From: a virus
Lineage: Duplodnaviria; Caudoviricetes
Length of the DNA: 64,000 bases
Virus record (IMG/VR): IMGVR_UViG_3300047539_000078
Span: 64,001 to 128,000 of that record
Strand: one strand, 5' to 3'
The position numbers were made by a program, and so were the translations under genes. Below, piece by piece: positions 746-42,006 of this stretch (position 1 is its first letter; each line of letters opens with the position of its first letter). The notes beneath the pieces are model-generated. The model made no database searches. It had not been told where the DNA came from and worked only from the letters and a program-made list of their open reading frames with translations.

Positions 746-758
746 AGGTAATCACAAC

Positions 759-969: not shown

Positions 970-990
970 GATTTGCGGTATTATCCCCTT

Positions 991-26262: not shown

Positions 26263-27615
26263 TCATACTCGACCGGGGTATTGGCTGAGCGGCTTCGGCG
26301 GGGAACGGAATGAGTCGTTGATGTGGTCAATAGACGCACTCTTGTCGTAGCCACCGAAACCGTTGTAGGGGTCCTTCATCTTGACCGCGAAGTTCATCTC
26401 CCGCAGGGGTTCGTTGTCGTAGTAGTCGTTATTTCCGCCCTCGTCTTCTTCAACGTTGATGGCGATTTCGGCGGCGCGGCTGGTTTGGAGGACCACGTGC
26501 ACCTTGCCTTCCCACGCGAACTTGTTGCCCCCACTTGCGTCGAACCGGACGAAGGTGTTCTCGTCTTCATCCGTGGCGTTCTCGACGGCGGTCGTGAGGT
26601 ACTTGTTGACCTCGTTGCTGGTCCCGGACTCCAATCCGTACTGGTAGGCCGTGTCGAGGGTTCCGTATACATCGGTGTTGACCCCCGCGTCACCCTCAAG
26701 ATAGCCGAGGAAATCCTTCACGTCGCCGACCACGTTCGGTTCCCACGTGAACTCATCCGTCCCGCCTTCCTTCTCGATGAAATCCTTCAACTCGTCGGGG
26801 TATGTTTGTTCCAGCGTCAACCCGATGTTATGGACGGTTTCCGGCTTGACATCGTCGAGCAGGTCGATCATGTCGCTCTTGCTCACGCCTTCCGTGCTGC
26901 TGGAATCGCTGTAGTCGTTTCCCTCGTCCTGTTTTTTGGCCCACTTCGCGGTGTCGTCCCCCCAATCGTCCACCAGTTCGCCCCAATCTCTGTACGTGGC
27001 GAGTATCAGTCCGTCCGATACCCAGTTATCTTCCTTGGAGCCGAGAAGGGCGCAGATCTTTTTCTTGGCGATGGCGTCTAGCTTCGCGCCGAGGGTGACT
27101 CTATTCAAATGGAATACCCCCGTTCGCGTCAGATACATCTTGAGCGGCATCAGGGCTGGCTTGGTCTCGTAGATGTCGTTCTGTTCCGTCTCGGACAGAT
27201 CTGATACGCTGAAGTTGTGGGACGGCATGTACCCGCCGCCGGTGATGCCTTCGATTCTCGGGTCCTTCAGGAGCGAGATGATGTACGGGTGGTAGCGTGC
27301 TGCCGGTTTCTCGTTCCCGCGTCCCTTCATCTCGCCCAACTGCTTGCTCTTCTGGTCGTAGATGAACGTGAGGTTCGGTTCCCAGTACGCCTTGTCCCCC
27401 TTCTTACGGGGCTCGCGCAGGCTGATGATGCGGTCGCCTGTGACCTGTCCCTGGTTGCCGCAATGCCCCATCGCCTTCGCCTCGGCGGGGCAGTAGCCTC
27501 GTGGCAAGCAGCCACCACGCCCAGCCGTTGTCGAACTTGATGAAGATTTCGTCGCCTTCCTGCGGCTCAAGCATGCGTTTGCTTTCGTCGGCCTTCGCGA
27601 GCATGGCGTCTTCAA
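26263..27615 (-). CDS. C-terminal segment of giant polyvalent protein: PcfJ-like domain and acidic tail
   Basis: CPAEAKAMGHCG..IISLRE..LTF..EMKGRGNEKP; continues ...GWAWWLL of the upstream ORF across a 1-nt shift near 27505. Confidence 0.7.
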   Translation of the reverse strand: MKTPCSRRPTKANACLSRRKATKSSSSSTTAGRGGCLPRGYCPAEAKAMGHCGNQGQVTGDRIISLREPRKKGDKAYWEPNLTFIYDQKSKQLGEMKGRGNEKPAARYHPYIISLLKDPRIEGITGGGYMPSHNFSVSDLSETEQNDIYETKPALMPLKMYLTRTGVFHLNRVTLGAKLDAIAKKKICALLGSKEDNWVSDGLILATYRDWGELVDDWGDDTAKWAKKQDEGNDYSDSSSTEGVSKSDMIDLLDDVKPETVHNIGLTLEQTYPDELKDFIEKEGGTDEFTWEPNVVGDVKDFLGYLEGDAGVNTDVYGTLDTAYQYGLESGTSNEVNKYLTTAVENATDEDENTFVRFDASGGNKFAWEGKVHVVLQTSRAAEIAINVEEDEGGNNDYYDNEPLREMNFAVKMKDPYNGFGGYDKSASIDHINDSFRSPPKPLSQYPGRV

Positions 27616-30600
27616 GCTCGCCGAACTCCCGGAGGAGTTCCTCCGGCGTCTGAAACTGGAATCTCTTGGACTGGATGTTCACGTCCTCCAACGCGAGGTA
27701 GTGCAGGAGCTTCCGCTTGAGCGGGGGCCAGATCGCCGTCAAATCGGAGGTGGGCTTGCCGGATTTCTGGGCGTATTCCTTTCTCGCATTGTCGAACGAC
27801 CCTGCGGGGACGACCTTGACATCCTCGGCTTGCTTGATCAGATCAAGGCGCACCCAGCGCAGGTACCACGTGATGCGGTCGGCCTTTTCGAGATGCTCCT
27901 TCGCCCATGCGACTTCCTTCTTGGCCATCGCTTCCCACGCGCCGGTCTGATTCGTGGCGGTGATGGACTTCAGGAACGACTTGAACATCTCCATGTAGTC
28001 GACGGCCAGGATGAGCAGCGGCGACGCGAGCTTCATGTCGGCCATCTTGCGGATGGCCGAACGGTCCCATATCTGGTACTGCTCCGGGCTCAGGTCGTCC
28101 TCCTCGGTCCAGAAAGCCCCCTTGTAGCCCTGCTTCTGCAGGATGTCCGCCGCCGTGCGCTGCAGCATTTCGAAGTAGAAATCCTCGCCCCCGAACCCCT
28201 GGTAGTCGGCTGCCTCGGCGATTGTTTGCGGATCGTCCGTCAACCCCTGTATATAGGTGTCCTCGGGGAACGCCTCCTTGATTTCCTTCACCACCCGCAA
28301 CACGTTTTGGCGTATGTCCTTGGGGATGGGATCGTCCCAGTGTCCGGTTTCGTGCAGGAGATCGTATGTGCTCGTGCCGTGGTATATGAAGTCGTCGTCT
28401 ATCTGCGCATTCGTCTTGACGGGGCCGTAATCGGCATAGCCCGTCCCTGCGGGACCGTAGAAGAAGCCCTCCGTATGCTCGGGTTCGGAGTGGCGCTCCA
28501 CGTCCACCCATTCCGCGACCTTGGAAGACTGGTGCCGTAGGCTGTCGGATTCCAGCCAATCCACGGTCTCCTCGACGCTCGTGAACTCCACGTTCCCCAC
28601 GCCCCCGTTGCGCGTCCACTCGATTATGACCCCATCGGTCGGATGCTCCATGATGTAGTCACGCATCTTCGCCTTGGAGCCGGAGTCCAGCGTCCCCACC
28701 TGGAAATTGGTGGAAGGCACTGTCTTGTTGGCGACGCGCCAAGACCCCCACACGTTGAAGCGGATCGCCCCCTTGTCGAGCGCCTGTCTGACCAGCTTGA
28801 CGGGGTCGTAGAAGACGGAACTGGATTCCGCGAGTCCCAGGCGCTGCGCCAGCAGGTTGTGCTCGTCGTGCACATTCTTGCAGTATTCCACGCTGCCATC
28901 CGGCATGATGAATCCGCCGTTGCGCCAGTTGCGACCGGCCTCCGTGAGAAGGTTCTCATTGACGGCTTCCTTTGCGCTGGCGGCCTTGGTTTGCTCGCCC
29001 ATTTCGACCGCGTAGCCGAATCTCTCGTTCCACTGGGTCCAGAAGTCCTCGGGCAGCTTGCCGTAATGAACGACCATGCGAACCACGGTCTTGCCCTCGG
29101 CGTTCTTGTATACGTACTGGCGTCCGTCGCGGATTTCCACGACCGCCACGATGTGGTTGGAACCGGAGTATCCGATGGGGGTCGTCACGCGGGCCGTTGC
29201 ACGGTAGCCCTTCTGCTCGTACGCCAGCGGGCGCATAGTGCGCGTGATCTGTTCTGCATGCTTGCGGAAGTCCGCTTCGCCTTGGGCCACGGACGGGAAC
29301 AGCGTGTCCTTGGGCGGCGTCTCATCCCACTTGCCGTTGAACACTTCCGTGTACGACTTTCTTACATCGTAATCCTTCATGCCCTTGGCGAAGTGTGCGG
29401 CCAAGCGCCCGAGTGCAGGGAGCCATGTGTCGGTGACGAGCTGCTCCAAGCGGGCACGCAGGTCGGCGTGCATCTCCTTCTCCTGTTCCTTGAACTTGTA
29501 GTCGAACATTTCCATGGCGTGCTTGATGTAGTTCTTCTTGTATTCGGCCGCATTGGACTGCCAGCTCGCACTCACGCCAGGCTGGGTTGCGGCGATATAG
29601 ACTATCGTGACGTGGTACTGGCTGTCGCTGATGTGCTGGATCGGGGCTCCCAATGAACTCACGATGCTGTCCTCGTCGAGGAAGAACGTCTGCGGTTGGA
29701 GTTCCGCCACGACGACGAGCTTGCGGCCAGTCCCGTTCTGCCCGTTGTCGTCGCGGACGCTGCCGGTCGCGGTCATGAGGTTCTGCGTGACGTAGATGCC
29801 GCCGTAGGCTTCACGGCTAGGCGTGTGGATACCGGCATTCGGGTCGCTGTCCCAGTTCTTCTTCTTCCCCTCGGGAACGAGCCCCTCCGCTATGATGGAA
29901 CGCAGGTTCTTGATGCTGGTCCCGTGATACCAGATGCCGCGCTTGGCGCTGAACTTCTCGATGTCGGCTTCGGGAGTGAGCTGTTCGGGTGTGGGGTTCC
30001 CGTTTATGCCCTTCCACATGTAAATGTCGGACTCTTCGTCCTCATCCCCGTTTTCATTGGCTTCATAGGTGTAGTCGAAGCCCATCTTCTCCCAGAAGCC
30101 TGCGGAGTTACCGTCACCGGTGTCGCCCGCGACCAGGCGCAGGAGCTTGATGGTTTCGGGGATGGACGCCTCAAATTCCGTCCATGCCGTGCGACCGCCG
30201 CCCTTGCCGCGATCCTCGGGCTTGAGTTCGAACATGTCGATCCAAAGCGAACTGCCTTCCTGGTGGAATTCAAGTTTGCCTTTAAGACCCGCTGTCTTGG
30301 ACGATTCCCGCCACTTGCGAACATCCGTCTTGACGGGCTCTTCCCCGGTTACCATCCAGCGGATGGCTTCGTCGGGCGTGAGCTTGTCAATGTAGTTCTG
30401 CGGATTGAAAAATTCAATGCTGCAATGAATTATAGTCGCTTTGTACTTTCTTATGGTATTTGCTATGAGTTTGCGGGTTTCCGGCGTATCGTTCATCACG
30501 GTGAAGTCGGGATTCGTGGAACCCTGGACGCGGATATTGCCCGCACGTGCAGCTTCCGATACGACATCCGTTCCTTCAAACTCGCCGTCTTCGTCCACAT

Positions 30601-33600
30601 CATCGTAATCTACGTCTACCAGGCCATACCGCACGGCTACTTGCCAGTGCTGTTCACCGTTGCATGGGATGAATTTTCCGTTTGACGCCGCGATCCACCC
30701 CGCCGAAAGAAGTCCGGCGGCGTCCTTGAATAGCGAGGATTGGAGATTCAGGCCGGACGCGCTCGGCGGTTGGTCAGTCGTCTTAGCCTTATCACGCTCC
30801 CGCCACTTCGCAACAAGGTCAGCCTCCTCCTGCCGTTCCGCAATGAACTTAGGATCGGCTGGAGGCAGCTCCGTCGGGGCAGAATTCCAAAGCTCCTGCA
30901 GCTTGGCTTTTTTGTCATCGTCCTGGGGGATGGTCCACTTGTCCCCGATCATGGACCCGTTCAGGAATACGGGGTCGGTCGTCTGGGTCATGCGAACGTT
31001 GGGATCGGGTGACTTTGACTTATTCCACAGCCACCGGCTTACGCCCTTCCCTCCGATGCGGGTGGCCACGGCGAAGTATAGCTTGCCGCTCGGGAACTTA
31101 CACAATGCGATCCAGTACGGCTTCACTGGGGATTTATCTTGGACATACGATTCATCGGAATGCTCGGTGACAAAGTCCCCCCCGTACTTGGCGTTGTACT
31201 TGTCGGCATACAGTTTCCAACTGGGGCCATGCCCCGTTCCCTTCTGATTGCGGACGAACATCTTGTAGCCGACCGTCCCCATCCCTTCATAGCGCTGGAG
31301 TTCTTTAATGCCGTTGACGAGCGAATCGGCATGGTGGCAAAGTTCATGGGCCAGGACGCGGCGCAGCGTGTTTTCATCGCCCACTATGGATTTTTGAACG
31401 TCTATGCGGGTGTTCGCACCCCAGGACAACTGGTTGTTTTTGATTGCTATGCGCCAAGTGTCCTGTCCCCACCAGTTCGAACGCTGTTGGTTGACGATCT
31501 TGAGTTCCGGCTCCGGAAGTTCTTCCCCCAGAATCGGGAAAAGCTCCCGCATCACACGCTGCACTTGCGCCAGTTCTGATTGTGTTGCTGCAAGATGGGC
31601 CGTGTTCGTCTTCACCACTTGGATTTGGCCGGAATCGAAGACGGCGTAGGATATGCCGCCGAATTCCCCCTCGCCTTCGTCGCAAACCACGCCGTCGTAT
31701 CCCAGATGGCGGATTGCATCCACGAACTTCTTGTCGTCCAGCAGCTTCCACTCCTGCCCTTGCTCGTCCACCCGCAGTTTATTGGCGTCTATGCCGTAGT
31801 TCTGCCACGGGAAATCAGGCAGAAGATTGTCGCGCAGTTCTTCCAGCAGCGTGTAGCGTGTCTTGCCCCCGTCGAACGGAAGGTCAGGTTGGCTCACATC
31901 GGCGTCGATCCACGATGCATCACGGAAATCCAACGGGTTGTCGATGGTGATGTAGCACTGCTTGACGTAGCGCTTGTCCCCGTGCTGCTTGGTGCGGTTC
32001 TCCGCCCAGTTCCAAGCCACCTGCGAGTCGGGGGTGAAGAAGTAGGCGTGCGTCTTAACCGTGTAAGAGATGCCGAAGAGCCCATGGGTCCGGTTCGCCA
32101 CTTCCTGCGGGGCGAATTCCTCGAACATGTTGGGCGTGCCGTGGAATACGGGTCCGATTCGATTCGCCTTCTTGAACAGCTTGCCTACGCGAGTCGAACC
32201 GAATGTGCGCTTCGGATTATCCCAAAAATTTTGGGCATCATTGGAGTGAGGCAATGAGGGTGCGATCTTCTTGCCGAGCAGCTTTTCGGCTGCGGAATAC
32301 AATACGGACCCAATCCCCTGGCGGCGATGATTAGGTTCGACTTCAATGGCTCCCTCTATTTTATCTTCATACTTGGTGTGAGGACCCCCGAACGCACTTC
32401 CAACTACGCGGTCATCATTGTCCACTACCCAAAAATTCCAATAGCCTTCTTCGGTGGATTGGAATGCATAAACACCGTACTCCTTAAAAGTGTCGACCTT
32501 TTTGGCTTGGGCTTTGTAGGTGTCCAGCCACATTTCGGTGAAACGTTCCCATCTTTCAGGGTCGTTTGACGGTCTGTTTTTATATTCAGCTAGCTTGCCC
32601 GTGCGAGTCACGCCGAGGTCGTAGGTTCCATCGACAGCCTCGCCGCCTTCCTCCACCAGCTTTTCGATCGAGGGCAGGCTCAATCCGAATCCACCGCCTC
32701 GACGGTCGGGCTGGTTCGCCCACCCGTTGGAGCCTTCCGGGTATTCCGTATAGCGGCGCGAATCGAGTTGCGGGCTGTCGGCGGTTTTCGTAACTCTAGA
32801 CGGCTTTTCCAGACTGAAATCGATATCCTCACCCTTTCTCACTAGTTTCTTAGTAAACGAACGTCCTTGGTATTCCATTTTTTTGTACATCCCAACCGTA
32901 GCGTCGAATTGAACGTTATCCCCTAAGGAAAGACCTGCGGACCAGCCTCCTCCGGCAATCCACACATGGTCGGCGACTTCAGAACCGTTTTGCTTCAAAT
33001 TTTCCATGCAAATGTAACCCTTTCGCCCCATTGAACCCACAGTCCCAGTGAATGTCTTGCGTTCGTCTAAGAACTCCGCTAGTCGGTCGCGGGTTGAACT
33101 CTTCAGCAGCCAATGACCGACCTTGCTGCCGAGCACCCAATCGCCCTTGGGGGCGTACGAGGACTTGTCCCCGTGGAGCTGGTGATGCAGTTGTATGAAC
33201 CACTCTGAGCGGAAATCGGAATGGGCGTCCACGAAATCGCTTCCGTACTTCCCGTTGAACTTCTGCGCGAAGTAAATCCACGGCCCCATGTGGGAGTCGT
33301 TGAACACCTGGGTCCGGTCGAACAGAGCCTTGTCGGGCTCCTTGCGCTCCGCCACACGCTTCATGTAGTCCATATAGGTCGCATAGTGGCATATCTCGTG
33401 AGCGAGCACGCGGCGGAACAGATCTTCAGAGAGTGTGCATGCCTTCTCGACCGTGATCCATACATTGAGCTTGCTCGTCGTGCCGTTTATGTGGCATACC
33501 CCCATCGCTTTGGGGGACAGGTTGTCTACGATCACGACACGGGGACGCTCGCTAACATCGGGGATCACGGACATCAGTTCCGCGACGATGGCATCGACAT

Positions 33601-34975
33601 TCACGTCGGCTGTACTGGCTGCCACCTTGCCCGTGTTCTCCAGCCAATCGGTGACCTCAGGGACGCTGTTGAATTCCTCATATCCGCCTTTCCATTCTAC
33701 GATGATGAAATCGATCTTGACGGGATCGGCGAAAAGGAATTCGGAAATCTCTCGCTTGACGGTCGAATTCAGGCGGGTGACCTCGATGTAGACCCCCGAC
33801 TTCGCCCCGTAATCAGGGACGATGCGGACGGCACCCTTGGTGAGGGCATCCGTCTCGCTCTTAAAGCCCAGTCTCAAAGCGAGATTGCCGTGAGTCTCGT
33901 TCTGGCGGGCATAGTATTCACCGTCTACGATCCAGCCCCCATCGCTGAAGATGGTGAACTCCTCATCTTTGGCGTAGGGTTCGGTGGGCACGTTGCGCAT
34001 GTCCCATCCGCCCGTCTTGTCAAGCCACAGCCGAAATCCTTGAAACGCTCCTGGATGTTCAAGTCGACGATTTCTACTAACCCGGCGCTGCGTGTCCGTC
34101 TTGTCGAGCCACAGCCCAATGGCGTGTCCGGTTTTTTGATCCCAGAACTCCTCCGCACCGGAACTGCTTCTGATGGATTCGTAGCCGAGGGACGCGAGGA
34201 TGCCGCGAGATTCGTCGAAGTCGGACTGGTCGTCTGCCACGATGTCCGTACCGGCGCTCGCCGCCTTCTGGATGTACGGAACTTCCTTCATCACTTCCCG
34301 CCCTTCATAGATCAGCGGTTCCGCCCCCACGTTGTATCCTAGGAGGCGCAGCACCTTCATGTATTTGTTCGTCTTGTCGGGGCTTTGCGATACCGCATGC
34401 AGCTTGCCGTATGTGTCCAGCCACCCGTCGATCACCTGCTTGATGCCGTTCACGGTCTTGCGCCCATCGGCGGGCATCTCCGTCAGCGGCTGCGTATTCA
34501 TGTGCTGGCTCTTGTCGGCCATGTTGAAGCCGCGACGCTGGATGCCGATCTGGAAGAAGTCCGGGATGAGTTCGGTGCCCATCAGGACGAGTTCATAGTC
34601 CCCGACTTCCGCCTCGTCAATGATGTAGCTGCCCGTCAGCTCTTCTATTTCGTCCCGGTTCTCCGGCGTGAGCGCTGCGGTCTTTCCGGCGAGCCCGTTC
34701 AGCGTGCGGGTGCCGCCTTCCACAAACCATCCCGCGAGGTCGCTGCGCGGGTGGACGAGGTTGAGGATGCGGTCGATGATCTGGAGCTTGTCCTCGGCTG
34801 TCTTGGCCTCCCGGAGATTCAACGCCTCGTTTGAAAGGGCATTTGCCGCGTAGTCGCTGATTCTCCAGGACCCGTGCTCGTCATCGAAGAAAGACTCGTT
34901 GATTTCAAAGTAGTTTTCGGGAAGCCCCTCTTCAGTCAAATCAGTAGCGGTCAATTGGGCTCTCCGCATAGTCAA
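27404..34975 (-). CDS. main segment of giant polyvalent protein: 2 SprT-like zincins, 2 GNATs, 3 HGT-type ART-like domains, 3 copies of an unnamed repeat domain
   Basis: VLAHEICH and VLAHELCH; RRQGIG and RGKGGG GNAT motif A; FHGT/YHGT ART motifs; K-x-A linkers. Confidence 0.85.
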   Translation of the reverse strand: MTMRRAQLTATDLTEEGLPENYFEINESFFDDEHGSWRISDYAANALSNEALNLREAKTAEDKLQIIDRILNLVHPRSDLAGWFVEGGTRTLNGLAGKTAALTPENRDEIEELTGSYIIDEAEVGDYELVLMGTELIPDFFQIGIQRRGFNMADKSQHMNTQPLTEMPADGRKTVNGIKQVIDGWLDTYGKLHAVSQSPDKTNKYMKVLRLLGYNVGAEPLIYEGREVMKEVPYIQKAASAGTDIVADDQSDFDESRGILASLGYESIRSSSGAEEFWDQKTGHAIGLWLDKTDTQRRVSRNRRLEHPGAFQGFRLWLDKTGGWDMRNVPTEPYAKDEEFTIFSDGGWIVDGEYYARQNETHGNLALRLGFKSETDALTKGAVRIVPDYGAKSGVYIEVTRLNSTVKREISEFLFADPVKIDFIIVEWKGGYEEFNSVPEVTDWLENTGKVAASTADVNVDAIVAELMSVIPDVSERPRVVIVDNLSPKAMGVCHINGTTSKLNVWITVEKACTLSEDLFRRVLAHEICHYATYMDYMKRVAERKEPDKALFDRTQVFNDSHMGPWIYFAQKFNGKYGSDFVDAHSDFRSEWFIQLHHQLHGDKSSYAPKGDWVLGSKVGHWLLKSSTRDRLAEFLDERKTFTGTVGSMGRKGYICMENLKQNGSEVADHVWIAGGGWSAGLSLGDNVQFDATVGMYKKMEYQGRSFTKKLVRKGEDIDFSLEKPSRVTKTADSPQLDSRRYTEYPEGSNGWANQPDRRGGGFGLSLPSIEKLVEEGGEAVDGTYDLGVTRTGKLAEYKNRPSNDPERWERFTEMWLDTYKAQAKKVDTFKEYGVYAFQSTEEGYWNFWVVDNDDRVVGSAFGGPHTKYEDKIEGAIEVEPNHRRQGIGSVLYSAAEKLLGKKIAPSLPHSNDAQNFWDNPKRTFGSTRVGKLFKKANRIGPVFHGTPNMFEEFAPQEVANRTHGLFGISYTVKTHAYFFTPDSQVAWNWAENRTKQHGDKRYVKQCYITIDNPLDFRDASWIDADVSQPDLPFDGGKTRYTLLEELRDNLLPDFPWQNYGIDANKLRVDEQGQEWKLLDDKKFVDAIRHLGYDGVVCDEGEGEFGGISYAVFDSGQIQVVKTNTAHLAATQSELAQVQRVMRELFPILGEELPEPELKIVNQQRSNWWGQDTWRIAIKNNQLSWGANTRIDVQKSIVGDENTLRRVLAHELCHHADSLVNGIKELQRYEGMGTVGYKMFVRNQKGTGHGPSWKLYADKYNAKYGGDFVTEHSDESYVQDKSPVKPYWIALCKFPSGKLYFAVATRIGGKGVSRWLWNKSKSPDPNVRMTQTTDPVFLNGSMIGDKWTIPQDDDKKAKLQELWNSAPTELPPADPKFIAERQEEADLVAKWRERDKAKTTDQPPSASGLNLQSSLFKDAAGLLSAGWIAASNGKFIPCNGEQHWQVAVRYGLVDVDYDDVDEDGEFEGTDVVSEAARAGNIRVQGSTNPDFTVMNDTPETRKLIANTIRKYKATIIHCSIEFFNPQNYIDKLTPDEAIRWMVTGEEPVKTDVRKWRESSKTAGLKGKLEFHQEGSSLWIDMFELKPEDRGKGGGRTAWTEFEASIPETIKLLRLVAGDTGDGNSAGFWEKMGFDYTYEANENGDEDEESDIYMWKGINGNPTPEQLTPEADIEKFSAKRGIWYHGTSIKNLRSIIAEGLVPEGKKKNWDSDPNAGIHTPSREAYGGIYVTQNLMTATGSVRDDNGQNGTGRKLVVVAELQPQTFFLDEDSIVSSLGAPIQHISDSQYHVTIVYIAATQPGVSASWQSNAAEYKKNYIKHAMEMFDYKFKEQEKEMHADLRARLEQLVTDTWLPALGRLAAHFAKGMKDYDVRKSYTEVFNGKWDETPPKDTLFPSVAQGEADFRKHAEQITRTMRPLAYEQKGYRATARVTTPIGYSGSNHIVAVVEIRDGRQYVYKNAEGKTVVRMVVHYGKLPEDFWTQWNERFGYAVEMGEQTKAASAKEAVNENLLTEAGRNWRNGGFIMPDGSVEYCKNVHDEHNLLAQRLGLAESSSVFYDPVKLVRQALDKGAIRFNVWGSWRVANKTVPSTNFQVGTLDSGSKAKMRDYIMEHPTDGVIIEWTRNGGVGNVEFTSVEETVDWLESDSLRHQSSKVAEWVDVERHSEPEHTEGFFYGPAGTGYADYGPVKTNAQIDDDFIYHGTSTYDLLHETGHWDDPIPKDIRQNVLRVVKEIKEAFPEDTYIQGLTDDPQTIAEAADYQGFGGEDFYFEMLQRTAADILQKQGYKGAFWTEEDDLSPEQYQIWDRSAIRKMADMKLASPLLILAVDYMEMFKSFLKSITATNQTGAWEAMAKKEVAWAKEHLEKADRITWYLRWVRLDLIKQAEDVKVVPAGSFDNARKEYAQKSGKPTSDLTAIWPPLKRKLLHYLALEDVNIQSKRFQFQTPEELLREFGELEDAMLAKADESKRMLEPQEGDEIFIKFDNGWAWWLLATRLLPRRGEGDGALRQPGTGHRRPHHQPARAP

Positions 34976-36252
34976 GCGGGTTGTTCATGCGTGTGCCCGG
35001 TCAGGATGTTGTTCACTTCGATCTTGTGGATGTTCGTGACGATGATGTCGGCAATCTTGTTGATGCCAGCCTCGTCCCGCACGAATCCGAGCTTCGCGTA
35101 GTCATTCCAGATTTTCTTCAGGCGTCCTGCGGGGACGAGCGTCCATTGCTGGCGGTATGCCTTGTCATTCAAATGGGCGGCGTACTCGCTCAACAGGGCG
35201 CTTGGGCGACCTATGTCATGACCTTCTACGTGAGAGTACACCGTGTCTTCGGACGCGGCGGTCTTCGGCTTGACCATCCGCACCTGGTTCGGCTTGAACA
35301 CGATGGCGTCGAAGGTCCCGTCCTTCTCGGGCAGGATCACGCCGTCGTAGTCCCGCTTGAGTTCCCCGAGGGAGTACTTCTCGTACTCCGCCCACCCGGC
35401 GGGGTTCTTTATGTTCACGTACATCCCGAGGATGTGCTTCGCGCCGGAAGCGCCCGACTCCCCCCGCTCGATCTTGGAACGGTCGGAGGTGACCCAGAAC
35501 ACGCCCTGCGCCCCCTTGCCCATGTTCACGCGGGAGAACTGCTCGTTCGTCCCGTGGTAGCAGACGAGCGGCTTCCCTGCGGCGTCGACGACCTTGGAAC
35601 CGGCGAACCAGGCATCGAGCGGCTGCGAGGCGAACACGGTTTGTTTTATGGTCTGTATGGCGTCGGGCGGGATATCGCCCAAGTACGCCGCCTGGCAGAC
35701 GTATTTCATGCTGACCTGCCACGGACACAGCGCCCAGTTGTCCCCGCATTCGTTGCGGATGCTGGCCGGAACCTCTTGCCACATATCGGGAAGCTCGTAG
35801 TCATCAGGACGCAGGCGGTCTTTGTTCAGCTTCGAGAGGTCGATGCGGAGGACAACCCAATCCTTGTCAGCAACACCCCACATACCGGCATAATTCCGCG
35901 CCGTGTACTCGTCGCAGGCGATATAGATGGCCTTTCCCCACTCGACATGGGACTCAGACATATCAGACTTGAGGCCGTTTTTCAGGATATCACCCAAATT
36001 GGCTCTATCGGTTCCGTGATAGCCGAACTTCGGCTCCTTGGCGGCGGAGGTCATGGACATGCCGGAGTTTTCCAGCCAGTCCACGCACTCCTGGCTGCCG
36101 TCGAATGACTCGGTCTCGCCAATCGCAACAGCATCAATGAAAATCTTGTACTCCGAGGGATGCGTGATCAGGTGGTCCTTCACCAATTGGCGAGTGTTGC
36201 CCGCACCCAGATCGTACACCTCGATGCTGACTTCCTTGTTGTAGAAGGACAC
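34972..36252 (-). CDS. segment of giant polyvalent protein: Tpt1/KptA-like ART and ART-PolyVal-like domains
   Basis: YHGTDRANLGDILKNGL..IY..IPP; WFAGSKVVD..PLVCYHGT..YDGVI..VFKPNQV. Confidence 0.8.
   Translation of the reverse strand: MSFYNKEVSIEVYDLGAGNTRQLVKDHLITHPSEYKIFIDAVAIGETESFDGSQECVDWLENSGMSMTSAAKEPKFGYHGTDRANLGDILKNGLKSDMSESHVEWGKAIYIACDEYTARNYAGMWGVADKDWVVLRIDLSKLNKDRLRPDDYELPDMWQEVPASIRNECGDNWALCPWQVSMKYVCQAAYLGDIPPDAIQTIKQTVFASQPLDAWFAGSKVVDAAGKPLVCYHGTNEQFSRVNMGKGAQGVFWVTSDRSKIERGESGASGAKHILGMYVNIKNPAGWAEYEKYSLGELKRDYDGVILPEKDGTFDAIVFKPNQVRMVKPKTAASEDTVYSHVEGHDIGRPSALLSEYAAHLNDKAYRQQWTLVPAGRLKKIWNDYAKLGFVRDEAGINKIADIIVTNIHKIEVNNILTGHTHEQPA
35585..35610. repeat. exact 26-bp direct repeat, copy 1 (copy 2 at 37732-37757)
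   Basis: TCGACGACCTTGGAACCGGCGAACCA is identical in two ART modules (encodes WFAGSKVVD). Confidence 0.85.
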
Positions 36253-39200
36253 CCGAACTGCACCCGTTTCCAGGCATAGGCGACCGCAGAAGTGTAGTCG
36301 CTTTTCGGCGCTAATCCAAGTCGAGTCGCAGCCCGTCCATGGTCTTCGTTATACTCCAGAGGCAGCTCCTTGCCGTCTGCGGTGATCCAAAGTCCACGGA
36401 CCCAACCGGCGGCGGTCTTCGGCTTCCCCATCAAGCTGTGCAGCTTGGCGTTGTCGTTTTTCAGGAGTTCCACGAGGCCGGGATGGAACGACCCCGGCTC
36501 GGTTTCCATTTTTTCGAGGACTTCTTCCAAAGGCATCCATTCGAGGGCATCCGTTTCCCACTCATGGGCATCCCCCGGGTTATATGCGAATTCGGCACCG
36601 ACCACCCCGATGAAGTTGTGGTACTTGAACCCGCCGTCCGTGAAGACGTGCGCGGGAATGAGGTTGATGCCGCCACGGTACCCGGTCTCCTCGCCGAGTT
36701 CATTCTTGGCGCTCTGTTCCGGGGACATTCCCGATTTGACGGCACCGCCTATGGTGCCCCAGCAATCGCCTTGGTGAACCGCGTTGCTGCGCCACGCGAG
36801 ACATACCGTACCTTTTGACGGGCAGACTGGCAGGATGCCGGACGCCGCATCCCCCTCCCCGGCCCACTGGCCTTCCTCGATGTACCCTTCGGCGGCTGTC
36901 TTGCGGTCCCGGACGGCTTCCTTCGCCTTTAAATTGCCGCTCAAGACAAACCACTCGCCCTGCATCCCTGAGTAATGGCTTTCGCCTGGCCGGGCACGCA
37001 TCCGCCAAGTCACTATGTCCGACAACTGTACTCCCTGGATTTTGCCGACGCTCTGCCAGACGAACCCGCGACCTTCCGCAAAATAGAAGGCGGTGTCCCA
37101 ATTGGAGGACCATGAAAGGACTTCCCGGTGGCTCCCGGTCCATGTGGGGGTGCCACGGTAATGCCACTTTTCGTCGTACGCGCCGCTGTAGTGCGGTTCC
37201 CCACGGTATATGCACTTACCGCCAAAAGCATTCGGCACGAACGGCGGGATGGTCTTGAGTATCGGAGCCAGTTTTTCGATGGGAGCATCGGGGACTTGCA
37301 CATAGTCCACGACCATATTCCAAAGCTCGTCGTCCTCGGCGATCTGGCGGCAAGCCTTGTCGTACTTGCTTTCAGCGGCGGTCTTGTACACGCTTCTGAT
37401 TTGGCTCGGCTTGAAGACCACCCATGTATCCCCGTCCCAAAGATCATCGAGTTCCGGATCGGACGTGATGCGGAGCCCGTCGTACCCGTTGCCCGCATCC
37501 ATGAGCAGTTGTCCGTTTTCAAGTTGTCCGTTCAGGTATTCCGACGGGGAGATGGTCAACGGACGCTTGACGGACAATTGGACGGGGTGTACGTTGCTGC
37601 CCTCATCCTTGCCGGTGTACTTGCTGGCGACATCCGGGTTGGCGGTAAAGAAAATCCCCTCTTCGCCAGACTTGAATTTTTCGAACTGGTGGATCGTGCC
37701 GTGATACACGGTCAAGGGGTTTCCTTGGGCATCGACGACCTTGGAACCGGCGAACCATTTGGGGTCTGCGGCACCGGCCTTGCGGTTCGGCGAGTACAGA
37801 TTAGCCTTGTATTCGATCCGCTCCTCGAATGCGTTGCTTTCCAATGCCGTGTGGATTCTTGACAGGGCGCGGTCTAGGTGATTAGCGGCTTCTTCATAGT
37901 CCCCTGCCGCTGCCTCGGCTTCCGCATATATCATATCTCCGTTGGAATACTTGACGCGCTCATTCAGATAGTCAGAAATTCCTGGGCCGCTCTTCGTCTT
38001 TGCCAACGCCGTGAAGTCCTTGATGATGGTCACCATCTTGGGAAGCATCTGGACGTAGAGACGCCGGACTGCTATCGGGTTCTCATCCTTGCTGGAGTCA
38101 AACCACGCCTTGCGGGCGTCCATGTTGATGATTTCGTTGTGCATAGCGTACAGGCGCGAGTATGCATCCGCATCGCCAGCGGAGGCGGTCTTCTTCCCAT
38201 GCTCAGTGTCAGCCGCGTCGTACACATCCACACGTATGACGGCTTCCGGCGGTACCAAGCCCGTACCCCGCCACAGGTCGCCTTCGACGTTCTTCAACCC
38301 CGACTTGATCTGGTCCAATACGACCACGGCGAACTCGCCTTCAAAGTGTGTCCCGTGGTTATTGGGGTTCCACACTCTGCCGCAGCCTGTGAGGCACCCG
38401 TAGTACAGGGCGTCGTTGATGTCGGTAGTGGCGTAGACTTCCTTGCTCTGGGACCACAAACCGTTCACGCGGATCGCCTCTGCGGCCTCCAAGCTGGTTC
38501 CGTGGTAAAGCTCGCCAGCGGAAGCGGTCTTGATCCCAAGCGGCACTGGCGTCTGCTTCTTGTCCTTCGACGAGAGTACGACCTCGTCTACCTGGAAGCT
38601 GATGCCCTCGAAGGCGTTGGAATTGCGGTAGCGCTCCGCGACCTCCGGCTTGACGAACGCGATGGTCACGTGCGGGGCGAATTCGAAATCCTCGGGGCGG
38701 TTTCCGAGGAACTTGTCGACGACGCCGTGAAGCGCCGTGAGCTGCGGTGCTTGGACTAGTGCTACGATTGGGCACGTGCCCTTGCTGCTGGCACTCGGCT
38801 GGAAGACCTGTAGGCGGCCAAGCGTGGCTGTGAAAGGTGGCTGGTCGCGCAGGGCTCCCCCAAGCTTCTCCGCGTTTTCCTCGACGCCGTAGCGGACGGT
38901 GATATGCGGGGTTTTCTCGCGTCCATCCCCGGCCAGGTCGTCGTCGGGGATTGTGGAATTCCCCAGTTCAATGATTTTCTTCGCGGCTTCATCCGGCAGG
39001 TTGATGAGGACTATGGCTTGGGCTGCGGCGGTCTTGCTCTCTGCGGTCTTTCCAGCCGTGATGGTGATCGGACCTTCAGGGGACGGGTCCTCCCATCCTA
39101 CGTTCGGGTCCTTCAGGATTCCGGTGAGCATGATCTGTGCGCCGTCCTTGAGGCGGCACTCGTCCTCATCATCCCCAATGGATGGGTGGAGGTTTACGGA

Positions 39201-40541
39201 CAGCGTCATATCCCAGTCCACCATGCTTGGGCTGGCGATATCCGCAGCAAGCGTCACATGATCGCCACGGGTTCCCCAGTGGGCTTCGGCTTTGTCTTCC
39301 GTCCACGACCAGAACACCCCGGCACCCGTCGTCTTCAGCGTTTGCCCTTTGGCGATTGAAATCTGCCGATAGACGGTGAGCGGAAAATCTATGGAGCGGT
39401 ATATGCTCACTCTTTTGTCGTACTCGTATTCTAAGGAATCATGCGCCAACCGGAGGACTTGCTTCTCCTGCTGCGCCGGTGTCAGGGATTCGAAGTTCGG
39501 AACGCTTTCATCGGCGTATTCGGCGAAATATCTCAACCCGTCGCCCAAGTCGGCGAGGAGTTTCTTCAGCCCTCCCTGTCTCTTCACCCATGCGTCGAAG
39601 TTCGGGAAGTTCGGTGCCGCCAATCCCTTCTTCAGCAAACCCGACTTGAATGCAGCCGTGATGGCCGGATTCTTCGGGTCGAACTTCCCGGCGTTGCCGA
39701 TGGCGCTCTTGACTTTGGTCGGGTCCCAGATGATGTAGTGCTTGGTGCCCCACTCCATCTCCATGGGCTTACCCCAACGGGCGGGCGTGCCGAACTCGCT
39801 GTAGGCGTCCTGGATGATGCCGTCGAAGCCCATCTCCCGGTACACATCGGCTATGAAACTGCTCTGCGCCTGGTTCCCTTCGTTATCCTCAAAGGAGTAT
39901 TCACCGTTGCGTACAGCCTTTTCAAAATCCCAGGCATTGAAAGACCCGCCGCTGTTATCGATGATATCGCCCCACGCTTTTTGAACATCGGCGCTGTCGT
40001 ATCCCGTCGCGGCGCGGTTCATCGCGTGGTACAGTTCAAGTCCGTTGCCTGAATCCTCACTGTCGTCGTCTTCGGCGATTTGAACCTCAAACATAGTGCC
40101 GCCGTTCTGTTGGACGATGACTGGGTTTTGGATGCTGAGATACACGGGCAAGGTCATGCCTTGACTATGCCCGGCGATCTCAGTTGCAGCCTTTTCCTTT
40201 GCTTTGTTGTAAAGCTTTTGGTACTCGGACTCTGGGTCGCTGCTCCACTTCGGTGTATTTCCCGTACCGTCTTCATCTTCCCAGTTGCTCATGATCTCCT
40301 CGGCACGGTGCTCAATGCGGGAGGTAATGTCCGGACCTGTCTTAGTCGCGTAGTTCTCGCTCACGTCGTACCGGGAGGATGTGAAGTACAGCCCCTTGCC
40401 GTAGTAGTTCTCCGCATTCGTCTTGTCCGGGTCGAACGCCTCGAAGTCGTGCGTCGTGCCGTGGTAGACCACCAACGGCTTGCCGTCCTCGTCGCGCACC
40501 TTGGACTTGCCGAACCACTGCTTGAAATTCTTGGTCTGCAC
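36180..40541 (-). CDS. segment of giant polyvalent protein: ART-PolyVal-like x2, other ART-like x3, 2H phosphoesterase, NUDIX
   Basis: YHGT x3; YR..WS..E motifs x2; PHIT / PHVT; GGAVKSGMSPEQSAKNELGEETG Nudix box. Confidence 0.85.
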   Translation of the reverse strand: MQTKNFKQWFGKSKVRDEDGKPLVVYHGTTHDFEAFDPDKTNAENYYGKGLYFTSSRYDVSENYATKTGPDITSRIEHRAEEIMSNWEDEDGTGNTPKWSSDPESEYQKLYNKAKEKAATEIAGHSQGMTLPVYLSIQNPVIVQQNGGTMFEVQIAEDDDSEDSGNGLELYHAMNRAATGYDSADVQKAWGDIIDNSGGSFNAWDFEKAVRNGEYSFEDNEGNQAQSSFIADVYREMGFDGIIQDAYSEFGTPARWGKPMEMEWGTKHYIIWDPTKVKSAIGNAGKFDPKNPAITAAFKSGLLKKGLAAPNFPNFDAWVKRQGGLKKLLADLGDGLRYFAEYADESVPNFESLTPAQQEKQVLRLAHDSLEYEYDKRVSIYRSIDFPLTVYRQISIAKGQTLKTTGAGVFWSWTEDKAEAHWGTRGDHVTLAADIASPSMVDWDMTLSVNLHPSIGDDEDECRLKDGAQIMLTGILKDPNVGWEDPSPEGPITITAGKTAESKTAAAQAIVLINLPDEAAKKIIELGNSTIPDDDLAGDGREKTPHITVRYGVEENAEKLGGALRDQPPFTATLGRLQVFQPSASSKGTCPIVALVQAPQLTALHGVVDKFLGNRPEDFEFAPHVTIAFVKPEVAERYRNSNAFEGISFQVDEVVLSSKDKKQTPVPLGIKTASAGELYHGTSLEAAEAIRVNGLWSQSKEVYATTDINDALYYGCLTGCGRVWNPNNHGTHFEGEFAVVVLDQIKSGLKNVEGDLWRGTGLVPPEAVIRVDVYDAADTEHGKKTASAGDADAYSRLYAMHNEIINMDARKAWFDSSKDENPIAVRRLYVQMLPKMVTIIKDFTALAKTKSGPGISDYLNERVKYSNGDMIYAEAEAAAGDYEEAANHLDRALSRIHTALESNAFEERIEYKANLYSPNRKAGAADPKWFAGSKVVDAQGNPLTVYHGTIHQFEKFKSGEEGIFFTANPDVASKYTGKDEGSNVHPVQLSVKRPLTISPSEYLNGQLENGQLLMDAGNGYDGLRITSDPELDDLWDGDTWVVFKPSQIRSVYKTAAESKYDKACRQIAEDDELWNMVVDYVQVPDAPIEKLAPILKTIPPFVPNAFGGKCIYRGEPHYSGAYDEKWHYRGTPTWTGSHREVLSWSSNWDTAFYFAEGRGFVWQSVGKIQGVQLSDIVTWRMRARPGESHYSGMQGEWFVLSGNLKAKEAVRDRKTAAEGYIEEGQWAGEGDAASGILPVCPSKGTVCLAWRSNAVHQGDCWGTIGGAVKSGMSPEQSAKNELGEETGYRGGINLIPAHVFTDGGFKYHNFIGVVGAEFAYNPGDAHEWETDALEWMPLEEVLEKMETEPGSFHPGLVELLKNDNAKLHSLMGKPKTAAGWVRGLWITADGKELPLEYNEDHGRAATRLGLAPKSDYTSAVAYAWKRVQFGCPSTTRKSASRCTIWVRATLANW

Positions 40542-41160
40542 CGCTGGCTTTTTTGCTTAGGTTTTGGCTGGAGAAGCTTCGGCTTAACCTTGGCTTAGGC
40601 TTTGACTTCGTCTTCGGTTGCTCCGGCTGTGTCGCAGGCTCGTCACGCTGCAGCACATCCTCGTCTTCATCCCGTTCGGGGAACTGCTGCGAGACCTCGG
40701 GGATTTCCGGTGCGATTTGCGTGGGAGATGCGGCGGTCTTCGATGTCCGGTTTTCCTCCACGGTTGCGCGGAAGTCCTCGATCGGGAATTGCTCTACCGC
40801 GCCGAGGCGTTCGTCCTTCCAGCTCTTGGGGTAGTGCTTCAGGTACAGGCTGGTGGCCTCATCAGCGGAGTCTGCACCCAAAACGCACTTGTATTCATCC
40901 GTCGTGCCATCCTCGTTTAATTGTTCTATGATATATGCATTGGGGGCATTCTCATTTGGTCCGATGTAGACATCCAAAGGCTCTTCGTCTCTTCCTAACG
41001 GAGCTTCATCCGCATCGGTTCCGATAAAGCCGTAATCCACGACCATCACGCGCTTCCAGGATTTGCCGTCTTTGTCTTCACCCTCACGGATGGAGCCTTC
41101 AGGCCACTCTACGACGACGGGAATCCCTTGAAATGTTTTCTTTGTGTGCTCTGGCTTCAT
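40342..41160 (-). CDS. N-terminal segment of giant polyvalent protein: inorganic pyrophosphatase-like (InPase) domain
   Basis: GIPVVVEWPEGSIREG.D.DG..W...DYG...D.EPLDVYIG...EQ...DEYK..LG; then SKTAAS linker and a Pro/Lys tract. Confidence 0.8.
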   Translation of the reverse strand: MKPEHTKKTFQGIPVVVEWPEGSIREGEDKDGKSWKRVMVVDYGFIGTDADEAPLGRDEEPLDVYIGPNENAPNAYIIEQLNEDGTTDEYKCVLGADSADEATSLYLKHYPKSWKDERLGAVEQFPIEDFRATVEENRTSKTAASPTQIAPEIPEVSQQFPERDEDEDVLQRDEPATQPEQPKTKSKPKPRLSRSFSSQNLSKKASGADQEFQAVVRQVQGARRGRQAVGGLPRHDARLRGVRPGQDECGELLRQGAVLHILPVRRERELRD

Positions 41161-41966: not shown

Positions 41967-41988
41967 CTTCGGACGGGCTCCGCCCTCA

Positions 41989-42006
41989 ATTATGCGCCCC
42001 AAAGTC
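41989..42006 (-). promoter_or_regulatory. putative phage late promoter GACTTT-N6-CATAAT
   Basis: Same motif as at 14012; heads the GIY-YIG / giant-gene operon. Confidence 0.5.

What the first reader, a model, noticed from the sequence alone, without database searches (positions are those of the whole stretch)
26263..41160. Giant effector polyprotein (about 4,950 aa) whose roughly 25 modules are joined by a K-x-A-[A/S] linker: candidate protease-processed, virion-delivered arsenal
Seen: five consecutive minus-strand ORFs join into one frame if single-base indels are corrected near 40550-40590, 36270, 34960-34990 and 27505. Two junctions cut through recognisable domains (...AYA|LETGAVRVSFY and WWLL|PRGYCPAE). 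Module order from the N-terminus: InPase, ART, R-S-E-like ART, 2H phosphoesterase, ART, helical unknown, ART, R-S-E-like ART, NUDIX, domain X, Tpt1-like ART, ART, two unknowns, X, zincin, unknown, GNAT, ART, zincin, X, GNAT, ART, X, ART-like, PcfJ-like. Nearly every boundary carries the same short motif: SKTAAS (~40735), GKTAESKTAAA (~39040), IKTASA (~38525), KKTASA (~38185), RKAGAA (~37775), YKTAAE (~37380), RKTAAE (~36895), PKTAAG (~36415), PKTAAS (~35260), GKTAAL (~34680), QKAASA (~34260), GKVAAS (~33625), TKTADS (~32785), GKLAE (~32595), FKDAAG (~30720), SKTAG (~30295), TKAASA (~28980), SKVAE (~28520), RKMA/MKLAS (~28040). Known: polyvalent proteins of phages and conjugative elements combine InPase, ART, zincin, GNAT and similar domains, and head proteases of T4 and phiKZ-like phages cut internal head proteins at short motifs. 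Inference: K-x-A is a protease site that cuts one late-expressed precursor into about 25 separate effectors, packaged and injected at infection. I do not know of a described polyvalent protein with such a regular linker code.
Basis: partly seen in the sequence, partly recalled or inferred. Interest (0 to 1): 0.92.

Follow-up and report, generated by a model that had tools for sequence, protein, structure and literature searches.

The report
Giant phage polyprotein with cut-site linkers
Five neighbouring reading frames of an uncultured soil jumbo phage are one gene of about 4,950 codons, broken by small sequence errors; its roughly 26 enzyme modules are joined by a short Lys-x-Ala-(Ala/Ser) tag that in related phages also brackets the head-maturation protease, so the chain is probably cut into single enzymes inside the phage head, though no cutting has been measured.

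Summary
The five minus-strand ORFs (26263-41160) are pieces of one polyvalent-protein gene. Contiguous homologues, including single ORFs of 3,341-4,132 aa, read through all four junctions. The breaks are single-base frame changes, two of them at the first junction. At least six more conserved genes on this contig are broken in the same way, so these are probably sequence errors.

K-T-A occurs 13 times against 1.5 expected. KTAA occurs 7 times, against once in the other 36,000 residues of the contig. The sites coincide with the ends of shuffled homology blocks (0 of 20,000 random trials do as well) and flank the Pfam domains.

The protease reading is supported only indirectly. This contig fragment (42% complete) holds no head protease. 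In a complete 463-kb relative and in the cultured phage Tunturi_5, the head-maturation protease is bracketed by the same motif. Across 120 homologues the K and A columns are 70-100% conserved amid variable neighbours. The scaffold-like protein, the capsid-protein N-terminus and other giant head-region proteins of the relative carry it too.

Cutting by the embedded zincins is not needed, because a relative with 12 KTA sites has no HExxH. No cleavage or packaging has been shown.

The scan noted the same motif earlier on other DNA (e1-5359355, e1-5341232, e1-5661893).

The parts
26263..41160 (-). Whole polyvalent-protein gene, about 4,950 codons and about 26 modules once the five frame changes are read through.
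   Evidence: ORFs. Contiguous homologues across all junctions. Relatives with single ORFs of 4,132, 3,510 and 3,341 aa.
40549..40592 (-). Junction 1: two single-base frame changes (about 40592-40589, and the A6 run 40554-40549) in a Lys/Pro-rich linker.
   Evidence: The three-frame reading matches P0007, P0009 and P0010 continuously.
36270..36275 (-). Junction 2: frame change inside the first copy of domain X.
   Evidence: P0002 residues 1354-1439 align across it; sequence.
34975..34984 (-). Junction 3: frame change inside a conserved helical domain. The TTGA stop/start overlap is not a real gene boundary.
   Evidence: L007, L008, L009, L010, P0005 and P0007 are continuous here. The window has 29 nt where the homologues have 3 codons.
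27503..27505 (-). Junction 4: frame change inside the C-terminal module (WAWW..R.YC..AMGHCGN block).
   Evidence: P0004 residues 2399-2477 align across it.
40759..41145 (-). Module 1, InPase domain, followed by SKTAAS at 40740.
   Evidence: Pfam PF18823, E 4e-30.
39681..40493 (-). ART-PolyVal module 1.
   Evidence: PF18760 matches.
38547..38912 (-). 2H (LigT-like) phosphoesterase, bracketed by KTAESKTAAA (39050/39035) and IKTASA (38531).
   Evidence: Pfam PF13563/PF02834. In the AF2 model the core is confident (pLDDT 80-97); the upstream motif pair lies in an unstructured lead-in and the downstream motif 4 residues after the last strand. K-x-A stands at one or both ends in most of the 11 aligned homologues.
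37383..37733 (-). ART-PolyVal module, bracketed by RKAGAA (37775) and YKTAAE (37385).
   Evidence: PF18760, E 1e-17.
36495..36845 (-). NUDIX module, bracketed by RKTAAE (36902) and PKTAAG (36419).
   Evidence: PF00293, E 3e-11.
35392..36054 (-). Weak Tpt1/PARP-like ART followed by an ART-PolyVal module; ends at PKTAAS (35265).
   Evidence: PF00644 and PF01885 score below their cut-offs; PF18760 E 4e-14.
33359..33514 (-). SprT-like zincin 1 (HEICH at 33400). A second zincin has HELCH at 31348, and a third HExxH lies at 28354.
   Evidence: PF10263, E 4e-9; HExxH positions.
31601..32533 (-). GNAT module followed by an ART-PolyVal module.
   Evidence: PF00583 E 5e-11; PF18760 E 2e-10.
28988..29944 (-). 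Large YHGTS ART-like module, the best conserved one (72% identical to P0001); ends at TKAASA (28987).
   Evidence: BLASTP.
28514..28987 (-). Domain X copy 4. The other copies lie at about 36060-36419, 33629-34267 and 30299-30727. Each ends ..(D/R)W(L/M)(E/V).. shortly before a K-x-A or T-S-A-A site.
   Evidence: No Pfam or Atlas match. Only 5 distant hits among 1.8 billion representative proteins.
28033..40740 (-). The 21 K-x-A linker sites, at 40740, 39050, 39035, 38531, 38192, 37775, 37385, 36902, 36419, 35265, 34684, 34267, 33628, 32788, 32596, 30727, 30298, 28987, 28522, 28048 and 28033. The internal KTAE at 34804 is a further match, not a boundary.
   Evidence: statistics.

Best explanation
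The region is one gene for a polyvalent protein of about 4,950 residues from an uncultured soil jumbo phage. It is a chain of about 26 unrelated or highly diverged host-manipulating modules. These include InPase, about eight ADP-ribosyltransferase-like modules with a [YF]HG[TS] signature, 2H phosphoesterase, NUDIX, two GNATs, two SprT-like zincins, four copies of an unnamed domain X and several unknowns.

The five ORFs in the record result from single-base frame errors, most likely sequencing or assembly errors.

The modules are joined by a short exposed peptide, K-x-A-[A/S], mostly K-T-A-A. Its most likely role is as the recognition site of the lineage's head-maturation protease, which appears to be of the T4 gp21/assemblin type.

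The inferred sequence of events is as follows. The precursor is made late and enters the prohead. The protease trims itself, the scaffold-like protein and the capsid protein at the same motif. It also cuts the precursor into 20 or more separate enzymes, which stay trapped in the head and enter the host with the DNA.

Shown here: the single ancestral ORF, the motif's enrichment and boundary position, its conservation at the peptide level, and its presence around the protease and in head proteins of relatives.

Inferred: cleavage, the scissile bond, packaging and injection.
For: One ORF:
- Homologues are contiguous over all junctions.
- Relatives have single ORFs of 3,341-4,132 aa.
- A census against intact orthologues of the 463-kb relative G003 finds six more frame breaks in 46.3 kb of other coding DNA on this contig. 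One splits an SNF2 helicase.

Motif is real and at boundaries:
- KTA 13 against 1.5 expected; KTAA 7 against 1 elsewhere on the contig.
- Sites coincide with homology-block endpoints, p < 5e-5.
- Sites flank the Pfam domains.
- In an AF2 model the motifs lie just outside the folded 2H core.

Peptide-level selection:
- Codons at KTA vary freely in relatives L007 and L009.
- The modules are too diverged for BLASTP self-hits, so the tag is not a recent copy.
- At orthologous 2H boundaries K and A are kept while x varies.

Protease link:
- The Tunturi_5 head-maturation protease gp331 has LKTA at residue 5, GKTAAT at 33 and KKVASA at 265.
- The G003 homologue (61% identical) has HKTAS at 54 and AKAAS at 293. 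It lies next to a scaffold-like protein (AKTAS 31 residues from its C-terminus), and the capsid gene two genes further on reads LLKTAG near its N-terminus.
- In 120 protease homologues the columns are conserved amid variable neighbours: K10/A12/A14 at 97-99%, K38/A40/S41 at 84-98%, K44/A46/A47 at 85-94%, and K277/A279/S280 at 70/100/96%.
- In whole G003 the motif is 3.3-fold denser in the 125-205 kb block that holds the capsid, scaffold-like and protease genes (Fisher p 7e-7).
- The best structural match of the (poor) protease model is T4 gp21 (5jbl_A, Z 4.9, rmsd 3.8, 126 residues). Herpesvirus proteases 1vzv (Z 4.3) and 8j3s (Z 3.2) are also listed.
- Eleven of 18 related giant proteins begin with a short leader of the form M..LL..K-x-A.

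Kinship: this contig shares 58 ORFs with G003, so the same protease family is expected in its missing part.
Against: - No protease or capsid gene is on this 142-kb fragment, which CheckV rates 42% complete. The link therefore rests on relatives.
- No proteomic or biochemical data exist for any member. The Tunturi paper has none.
- The protease fold assignment is weak. The model has mean pLDDT 55, Foldseek gave nothing, and Z 4.9 is below the tool's trust level.
- Conservation of the capsid N-terminus says little, because the whole capsid protein is 81-96% identical across homologues.
- The window protein's own N-terminus has no K-x-A leader.
- One KTA lies inside a domain, and some boundaries lack the motif.
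- Frame breaks are about 2.5 times denser in this gene than elsewhere on the contig (Poisson p 0.047), so real decay is not excluded.
- Reads could not be consulted.
Confidence: 0.5

Rival explanations
1. The linkers are cut by the SprT-like zincin modules embedded in the polyprotein itself. This is the self-processing proposed for polyvalent proteins by Iyer et al. 2017. The head protease plays no part.
For: - The window protein has two AHE(I/L)CH(Y/H) zincins and a third HExxH.
- Zincin metallopeptidases are the commonest hub domain of polyvalent proteins and were proposed as their processing enzymes (PMC5512222).
Against: - P0001, a close relative (up to 72% identity), has 12 KTA sites and no HExxH at all.
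- L009 and P0005 lack the SprT-type zincin yet have 6 KTA sites each.
- Relatives that do carry the SprT-type zincin (P0004, P0006-P0010) have only 1-3 KTA sites each.
- The motif also marks the protease, the scaffold-like protein and the capsid protein of relatives, none of which contains a zincin.
Confidence: 0.1
2. K-x-A-[A/S] is an uncleaved junction. It would be a conserved flexible cap or cassette boundary at which modules are gained, lost and reordered by recombination, and the protein would act as one intact giant chain, as N4 vRNAP does and phi24B gp47 may.
For: - Module order is thoroughly shuffled even between the closest relatives, and the breakpoints fall at the motif.
- In the window, five KTAA sites share the 11-mer AAGACCGCCGC, and Thr is never ACG at the 13 sites although ACG is 40% of Thr codons in the gene.
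- Some polyvalent proteins are known or thought to be delivered unprocessed (PMC5512222). phi24B gp47 is detected in virions.
Against: - Codons at the motif vary freely in L007 and L009, so no general DNA-level signal exists.
- A junction scar does not explain the N-terminal leaders M..LL..K-x-A.
- It also does not explain the conserved motif columns on both sides of the protease core in 120 homologues, or the motif in the scaffold-like and capsid proteins.
Confidence: 0.22
3. The frame changes are real. In this phage the gene is a decaying pseudogene, or it has been split into five separately translated genes.
For: - Breaks are about 2.5 times denser here than in other conserved genes of the contig (5 against 1.9 expected).
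- Several other long genes (832-1,102 codons) are unbroken.
- Relatives do encode the InPase module as a separate gene of about 500 aa.
- A TTGA stop/start overlap stands at J3.
Against: - All lesions are single-base frame changes and there are no nonsense substitutions across 14.9 kb.
- Each break cuts a conserved domain, and no ribosome-binding site or sensible start follows it.
- At least six other conserved genes, including an SNF2 helicase, carry the same kind of break.
- Several breaks sit in short homopolymer runs.
Confidence: 0.1

Closest known systems
Polyvalent proteins of phages and conjugative elements (Iyer, Burroughs, Anand, de Souza, Aravind 2017, PMC5512222)
   Same: - Many unrelated effector domains in one polypeptide of a phage (InPase, ART-PolyVal, zincin MPTase, GNAT, NUDIX, 2H).
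- Predicted delivery with the DNA.
- Predicted release of the domains by proteolysis.
   Different: - Described with 2-15 domains; this one has about 26 in about 4,950 residues.
- The paper proposes embedded zincins as the processing enzymes and describes no linker motif.
- Here a regular K-x-A-[A/S] code is shared with the head protease and head proteins of relatives, and it does not depend on a zincin.
Phage T4 head maturation: gp21 protease acting on gp23, internal proteins IPI-III and Alt (from established knowledge; reviewed in PMC9026906, listed but not read here)
   Same: - A prohead protease that trims itself, the capsid and scaffold proteins and the packaged, injected enzymes (Alt is an ADP-ribosyltransferase) at one short motif.
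- The best, though weak, structural match of the relatives' protease model is gp21.
   Different: - T4 cuts after Glu in (L/I)-x-E and removes one N-terminal targeting leader from each single-domain cargo.
- Here the motif is K-x-A-[A/S] and would dissect one chain at about 20 internal sites.
phiKZ gp175 / SPN3US gp245 prohead proteases and their ejection-protein substrates (PMC5694885, PMC10052503; titles and abstracts seen)
   Same: Jumbo phages in which the head protease cleaves many head and ejection proteins that are packaged with the DNA.
   Different: - The motif there ends in Glu (from my own knowledge; not checked here).
- The substrates are not long chains of enzymes of known families.
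- Cleavage there has been measured by mass spectrometry; here nothing has been measured.
Herpesvirus assemblin (maturational protease), consensus (V/L/I)-x-A|S (established knowledge)
   Same: - The same protease superfamily as gp21; VZV and HCMV proteases appear among the weak structural matches.
- Small residues Ala then Ser around the cut.
- The protease releases itself at flanking sites.
   Different: - A eukaryotic virus.
- No Lys requirement.
- It cuts only the scaffold and protease precursor, not an effector array.
- The resemblance of the sites is an inference from memory, not a test.
phi24B gp47 / 933W-type giant polyvalent protein (bioRxiv 10.64898/2026.04.10.717836)
   Same: A giant (2,811 aa) polyvalent protein detected in virions by proteomics and proposed to be packaged in the capsid and ejected.
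   Different: - A different domain set (LPD domains, MuF-C metallopeptidase).
- No repeated linker code reported.
- No processing into modules is reported for it.

Membership tests
Polyvalent protein (sensu Iyer et al. 2017) | Several biochemically unrelated effector domains in one polypeptide encoded by a phage or conjugative element. | tested here: met
   Pfam finds InPase, five ART-PolyVal matches, 2H, NUDIX, SprT-like zincin and GNAT along the joined frame. The record is a viral contig.
Polyvalent protein (sensu Iyer et al. 2017) | One continuous open reading frame. | tested here: inconclusive
   The record has five frames. Homologues are continuous over every junction, and six other genes on the contig are broken the same way. 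Reads could not be consulted.
Polyvalent protein (sensu Iyer et al. 2017) | Packaged in the virion and delivered with the DNA. | not testable with these tools
   Context only. In Tunturi_5 the homologue gp321 lies among connector, tail and head genes. In the window, genes with weak PHROG matches to head-decoration and virion or tail proteins lie 4-10 kb away.
Substrate of the lineage's head-maturation protease | Carries the motif at which the protease processes itself and the head proteins. | tested here: met
   K-x-A-[AS] is conserved at three N-flank sites and one C-flank site of the protease in 120 homologues. It also occurs in the scaffold-like protein and at the capsid N-terminus of G003. 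The same motif occurs at 19-21 module boundaries here. That these are real processing sites is itself an inference.
Substrate of the lineage's head-maturation protease | The same genome encodes that protease. | tested here: inconclusive
   It was not found on the 142-kb fragment, which is 42% complete. It is present in relative G003, which shares 58 ORFs with this contig.
Substrate of the lineage's head-maturation protease | Observed cleavage at the motif. | not testable with these tools
   No proteomic data exist for any member.
T4 gp21 / assemblin-type prohead protease (for the relatives' protease P0014 / Tunturi_5 gp331) | Family or fold match, and the canonical position next to the scaffold and capsid genes. 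| tested here: inconclusive
   - phrog_18299 'head maturation protease', E 6e-16.
- The gene order protease, scaffold-like, 209-aa ORF, capsid.
- Pfam S77 and S78 and NCBIfam give nothing.
- The model has pLDDT 55; VIA's top hit is gp21 at Z 4.9, and Foldseek finds nothing.
   No Pfam match at E up to 1, either for the window piece or for the contiguous homologue P0004:2170-2825.

The most novel reading that the evidence does not exclude
An abundant clade of soil jumbo phages uses a true polyprotein strategy. (Its protease family has more than 650 members and its capsid family more than 1,300 in public data, on contigs up to 894 kb.) A gp21/assemblin-type head protease with a previously undescribed K-x-A|[A/S] specificity would cut precursors of up to about 5,000 residues into 20 or more injected enzymes. 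The cut-site tag would also serve as the standard junction at which modules are swapped between phages.
Probability: 0.4. Interest if true: 0.8.

Novelty: new variant of a known kind. Interest (0 to 1): 0.62.

Why it matters
How polyvalent proteins are turned into working enzymes has been an open, purely predicted step since 2017.

This finding gives a short, regular tag that does not depend on a zincin and is shared with the head protease's own flanks. That makes the question directly testable, because a cultured relative exists: Tunturi_5, which grows on Tunturiibacter. Virion mass spectrometry or a protease-plus-reporter assay would settle it.

If the reading is true, it would define a new cleavage rule for phage head proteases. 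It would also give a rule for parsing giant phage ORFs into functional units, about half of which here have no known family. And it would show that dsDNA phages can deliver a magazine of 20 or more effectors from one gene.

For annotation, the finding also shows that this contig carries frame errors in many genes.

Tried and rejected
- Megablast of the region against phage records found no match.
- Only the polyvalent protein of Tunturi_5 has a tblastn match on this contig.
- Pfam Peptidase_S78, Peptidase_S77 and Phage_capsid found nothing in this contig or in four relatives. The protease was found only with the Tunturi_5 gp331 sequence as query.
- The AF2 model of the protease was poor (pLDDT 55). 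Foldseek against PDB gave no match, and a profile search of PDB sequences gave nothing. The VIA match to gp21 is weak.
- NCBIfam found nothing for the protease.
- Domain X: no Pfam match, no Atlas hit and only 5 distant hits among 1.8 billion representatives, so it was not folded.
- The 'PcfJ-like', 'R-S-E-like ART' and helical modules have no Pfam support.
- DNA-level recombination signal at the tag: the ACC/GCC codon bias in the window is not seen in relatives, so I rejected it as a general explanation.
- Embedded zincin as the necessary cutter: rejected because P0001 has 12 KTA sites and no HExxH.
- Capsid N-terminus conservation as independent evidence: rejected as uninformative, because the whole protein is 81-96% identical.
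- Internal recent duplication as the source of the repeated tag: rejected, since BLASTP finds no self-hits at E 1e-3.
- Literature searches for a described K-x-A phage protease rule or a polyprotein linker code found none. The library is limited, so this is not proof of absence.

Full report
**Setting.** The window is bases 64001-128000 of a 142,018-bp IMG/VR viral contig that CheckV rates 42% complete. The contig shares 58 ORFs (40-66% identity) with a complete 463-kb relative, G003. It shares only the polyvalent protein with the cultured jumbo phage Tunturi_5.

**Is it one gene?**
- The five minus-strand ORFs exist as described.
- Related viral contigs carry single ORFs of 4,132 aa (L007), 3,341 aa (L009), 1,705 aa and 1,480 aa. 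A protein search adds 13 more giants, among them P0001 (3,510 aa, on a 332-kb contig, up to 72% identical).
- BLASTP of the joined frames (X at each break) against this family shows contiguous homologues across every junction.
- Three-frame alignments pin the lesions:
  - Junction 1 is two frame changes about 40 nt apart, at 40592-40589 and in the A6 run 40554-40549. The short middle frame matches the Lys/Pro-rich linker of P0007.
  - Junction 2 (36275-36270) cuts a copy of domain X.
  - Junction 3 (34984-34975, which includes a CCC run) cuts a helical domain that is continuous in six relatives.
  - Junction 4 (27505-27503) cuts the conserved WAWW..R.YC..AMGHCGN block.
- No downstream piece has a credible start.

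**Are the breaks errors?**
- I compared intact G003 ORFs with the contig by tblastn. This found six further frame breaks in 46.3 kb of other homologous coding DNA. One splits an SNF2 helicase into its two lobes.
- The contig therefore carries indel noise throughout.
- The polyprotein has about 2.5 times the background density of breaks (5 against 1.9 expected, p 0.047), so some real decay cannot be excluded.
- Reads could not be consulted.

**Domains.**
- Pfam confirms InPase, five ART-PolyVal matches, 2H/LigT, NUDIX, a SprT-like zincin and GNAT. It gives weak PARP and Tpt1 matches.
- There are eight [YF]HG[TS] signatures and three HExxH motifs.
- About half of the roughly 26 modules have no family.

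**The motif.**
- KTA occurs 13 times against 1.54 expected (p 1e-8). It is the second most over-represented tripeptide, after the ART signature HGT.
- KTAA occurs 7 times, against once in the other 36,114 residues of the contig.
- Module order is shuffled among relatives, so the ends of homology blocks give boundaries that are independent of the motif. KTA sites have 4.7 such endpoints within 12 residues, against 0.97 for random positions; none of 20,000 random sets reaches this.
- The sites also flank the Pfam domains.
- In an AF2 model of the 2H stretch the core is confident (pLDDT 80-97). The upstream KTAESKTAAA lies in an unstructured lead-in, and the downstream KTAS lies four residues after the last strand.
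- One KTAE (34804) is internal to a domain. Six or seven boundaries carry only ITAA-, TSAA- or HLAA-like versions, or none.

**What kind of signal is it?**
- Relatives carry it too: P0001 has 12 KTA, L007 has 9, P0003 has 7, and L009 and P0005 have 6 each.
- A logo of 73 sites shows only K-T-A-(A>S,G,D), with small residues just upstream.
- Codons at the sites vary freely in L007 and L009.
- The modules are too diverged for self-hits.
- At orthologous 2H boundaries K and A are kept while x varies.
- Selection therefore acts on the peptide, and the tag is not a recombination sequence or a recent copy.
- Eleven of 18 related giants start with a short leader of the form M..LL..K-x-A. A junction scar would not explain that.

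**Which protease?**
- Embedded zincins are not required. P0001 has no HExxH, and relatives with the SprT-type zincin have few KTA sites.
- Earlier notes of this scan (e1-5359355, e1-5341232, e1-5661893) said the motif flanks the clade's head protease, and I tested that claim here.
  - Tunturi_5 gp331, annotated as head maturation protease, has LKTA at residue 5, GKTAAT at 33 and KKVASA at 265.
  - Its 61%-identical homologue in G003 has HKTAS at 54 and AKAAS at 293.
  - Directly beside that homologue on one side lies an acidic, scaffold-like 751-aa protein with AKTAS 31 residues from its end. Directly beside it on the other side is a 1,057-aa multi-module protein with KTAA and KTAS. Two genes beyond the scaffold-like protein lies the capsid protein (phrog_2522), whose N-terminus reads ..LGQLLKTAGG...
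  - In 120 protease homologues the motif columns are 70-100% conserved amid variable neighbours: three sites before the catalytic core and one after it.
  - Across the whole G003 genome the motif is 3.3 times denser in the 125-205 kb block that holds the capsid, scaffold-like and protease genes than elsewhere (p 7e-7).
- The protease matches phrog_18299 (E 6e-16) but no Pfam or NCBIfam model.
- Its AF2 model is poor and Foldseek finds nothing. The exhaustive aligner ranks T4 gp21 first (Z 4.9), with two herpesvirus proteases also listed. This fits the gp21/assemblin superfamily but does not prove it.

**Reading.** The best-supported account is a packaged precursor cut at K-x-A-[A/S] by the head protease. 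It combines the polyvalent-protein idea (PMC5512222) with T4- and phiKZ-style head maturation. Cleavage, the scissile bond, packaging and injection are all inferred. The Tunturi paper reports no proteomics, and I found no published description of this rule. The rivals are self-processing by the zincins, an uncleaved cassette junction, and real gene decay.

**Novelty.** This is a new variant of a known kind. The scan has met the same code before on other soil jumbo-phage DNA. My independent tests on G003, Tunturi_5 and 120 protease homologues agree with those notes.

Noticed in passing
window 41160-42002 (-): A GIY-YIG homing endonuclease gene (phrog_314, E 1e-24) ends exactly at the polyprotein's start codon. 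Its stop and the ATG share base 41160. In relatives L007 and L009 no such gene lies between the divergent 420-475-aa gene and the InPase gene.
   Followed up: partly
window 46082-47945 (-); about 12903-12931; about 15018-15039; about 51920-51930; about 52431; and G000 55960-56010: Six more frame breaks in genes that are intact in the 463-kb relative. One splits an SNF2 helicase between its ATPase lobe and its Helicase_C lobe. The contig carries indel noise throughout, so gene calls on it need care.
   Followed up: yes
L007:5062-6949 and L009:6354-8339: In two relatives the InPase module is the start of a separate gene of 493-518 aa. A conserved 141-144-aa gene (72% identical between the two) follows it, and then the giant ORF. 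The same module set is thus partitioned differently between phages.
   Followed up: partly
window about 36060-36419, 33629-34267, 30299-30727 and 28514-28987 (-): Four diverged copies of an unnamed 'domain X' (GW..DG..H..A.RLG ... GA.R ... DWLE). Three of the four are followed within a few residues by a linker site. There is no Pfam or Atlas match. One distant hit, P0254 (2,945 aa), matches a 30-residue part of it in 31 stretches.
   Followed up: partly
window 33100-33140 (-) and P0001: An extended tag (G/A)HWLL(K/Q)(T/A/S)(A/S) recurs at module ends in P0001 (three times) and once in the window (..VGHWLLKSS..). It may be a second, longer form of the junction signal.
   Followed up: no
window 28033-40740 (-), the 13 KTA sites: At the 13 KTA sites Thr is ACC or ACA and never ACG, although ACG makes up 40% of Thr codons in the gene. 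Five KTAA sites share the 11-mer AAGACCGCCGC. Relatives do not show this bias.
   Followed up: partly
window 23440-24711 (+): An intact RtcB-type tRNA-splicing ligase (phrog_1075, E 7e-127) lies 1.5 kb from the polyprotein's 3' end. Tunturi_5 also encodes a tRNA splicing ligase (gp296).
   Followed up: no
G000 39-1367 (-), outside the window: A 443-aa ORF at the very start of the contig. Its residues 8-120 match a module found in the L007 and L009 giants (36-44% identity). This may be the truncated end of a second polyvalent protein.
   Followed up: no
L016 / G003 163869-181536 and 197694-200864: The complete relative has several further large proteins in its head region that carry K-x-A-[AS] sites: 1,545, 619, 1,758 and 1,057 aa, the last with a GNAT domain. 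Large neighbours of 1,775 and 1,214 aa have none.
   Followed up: partly
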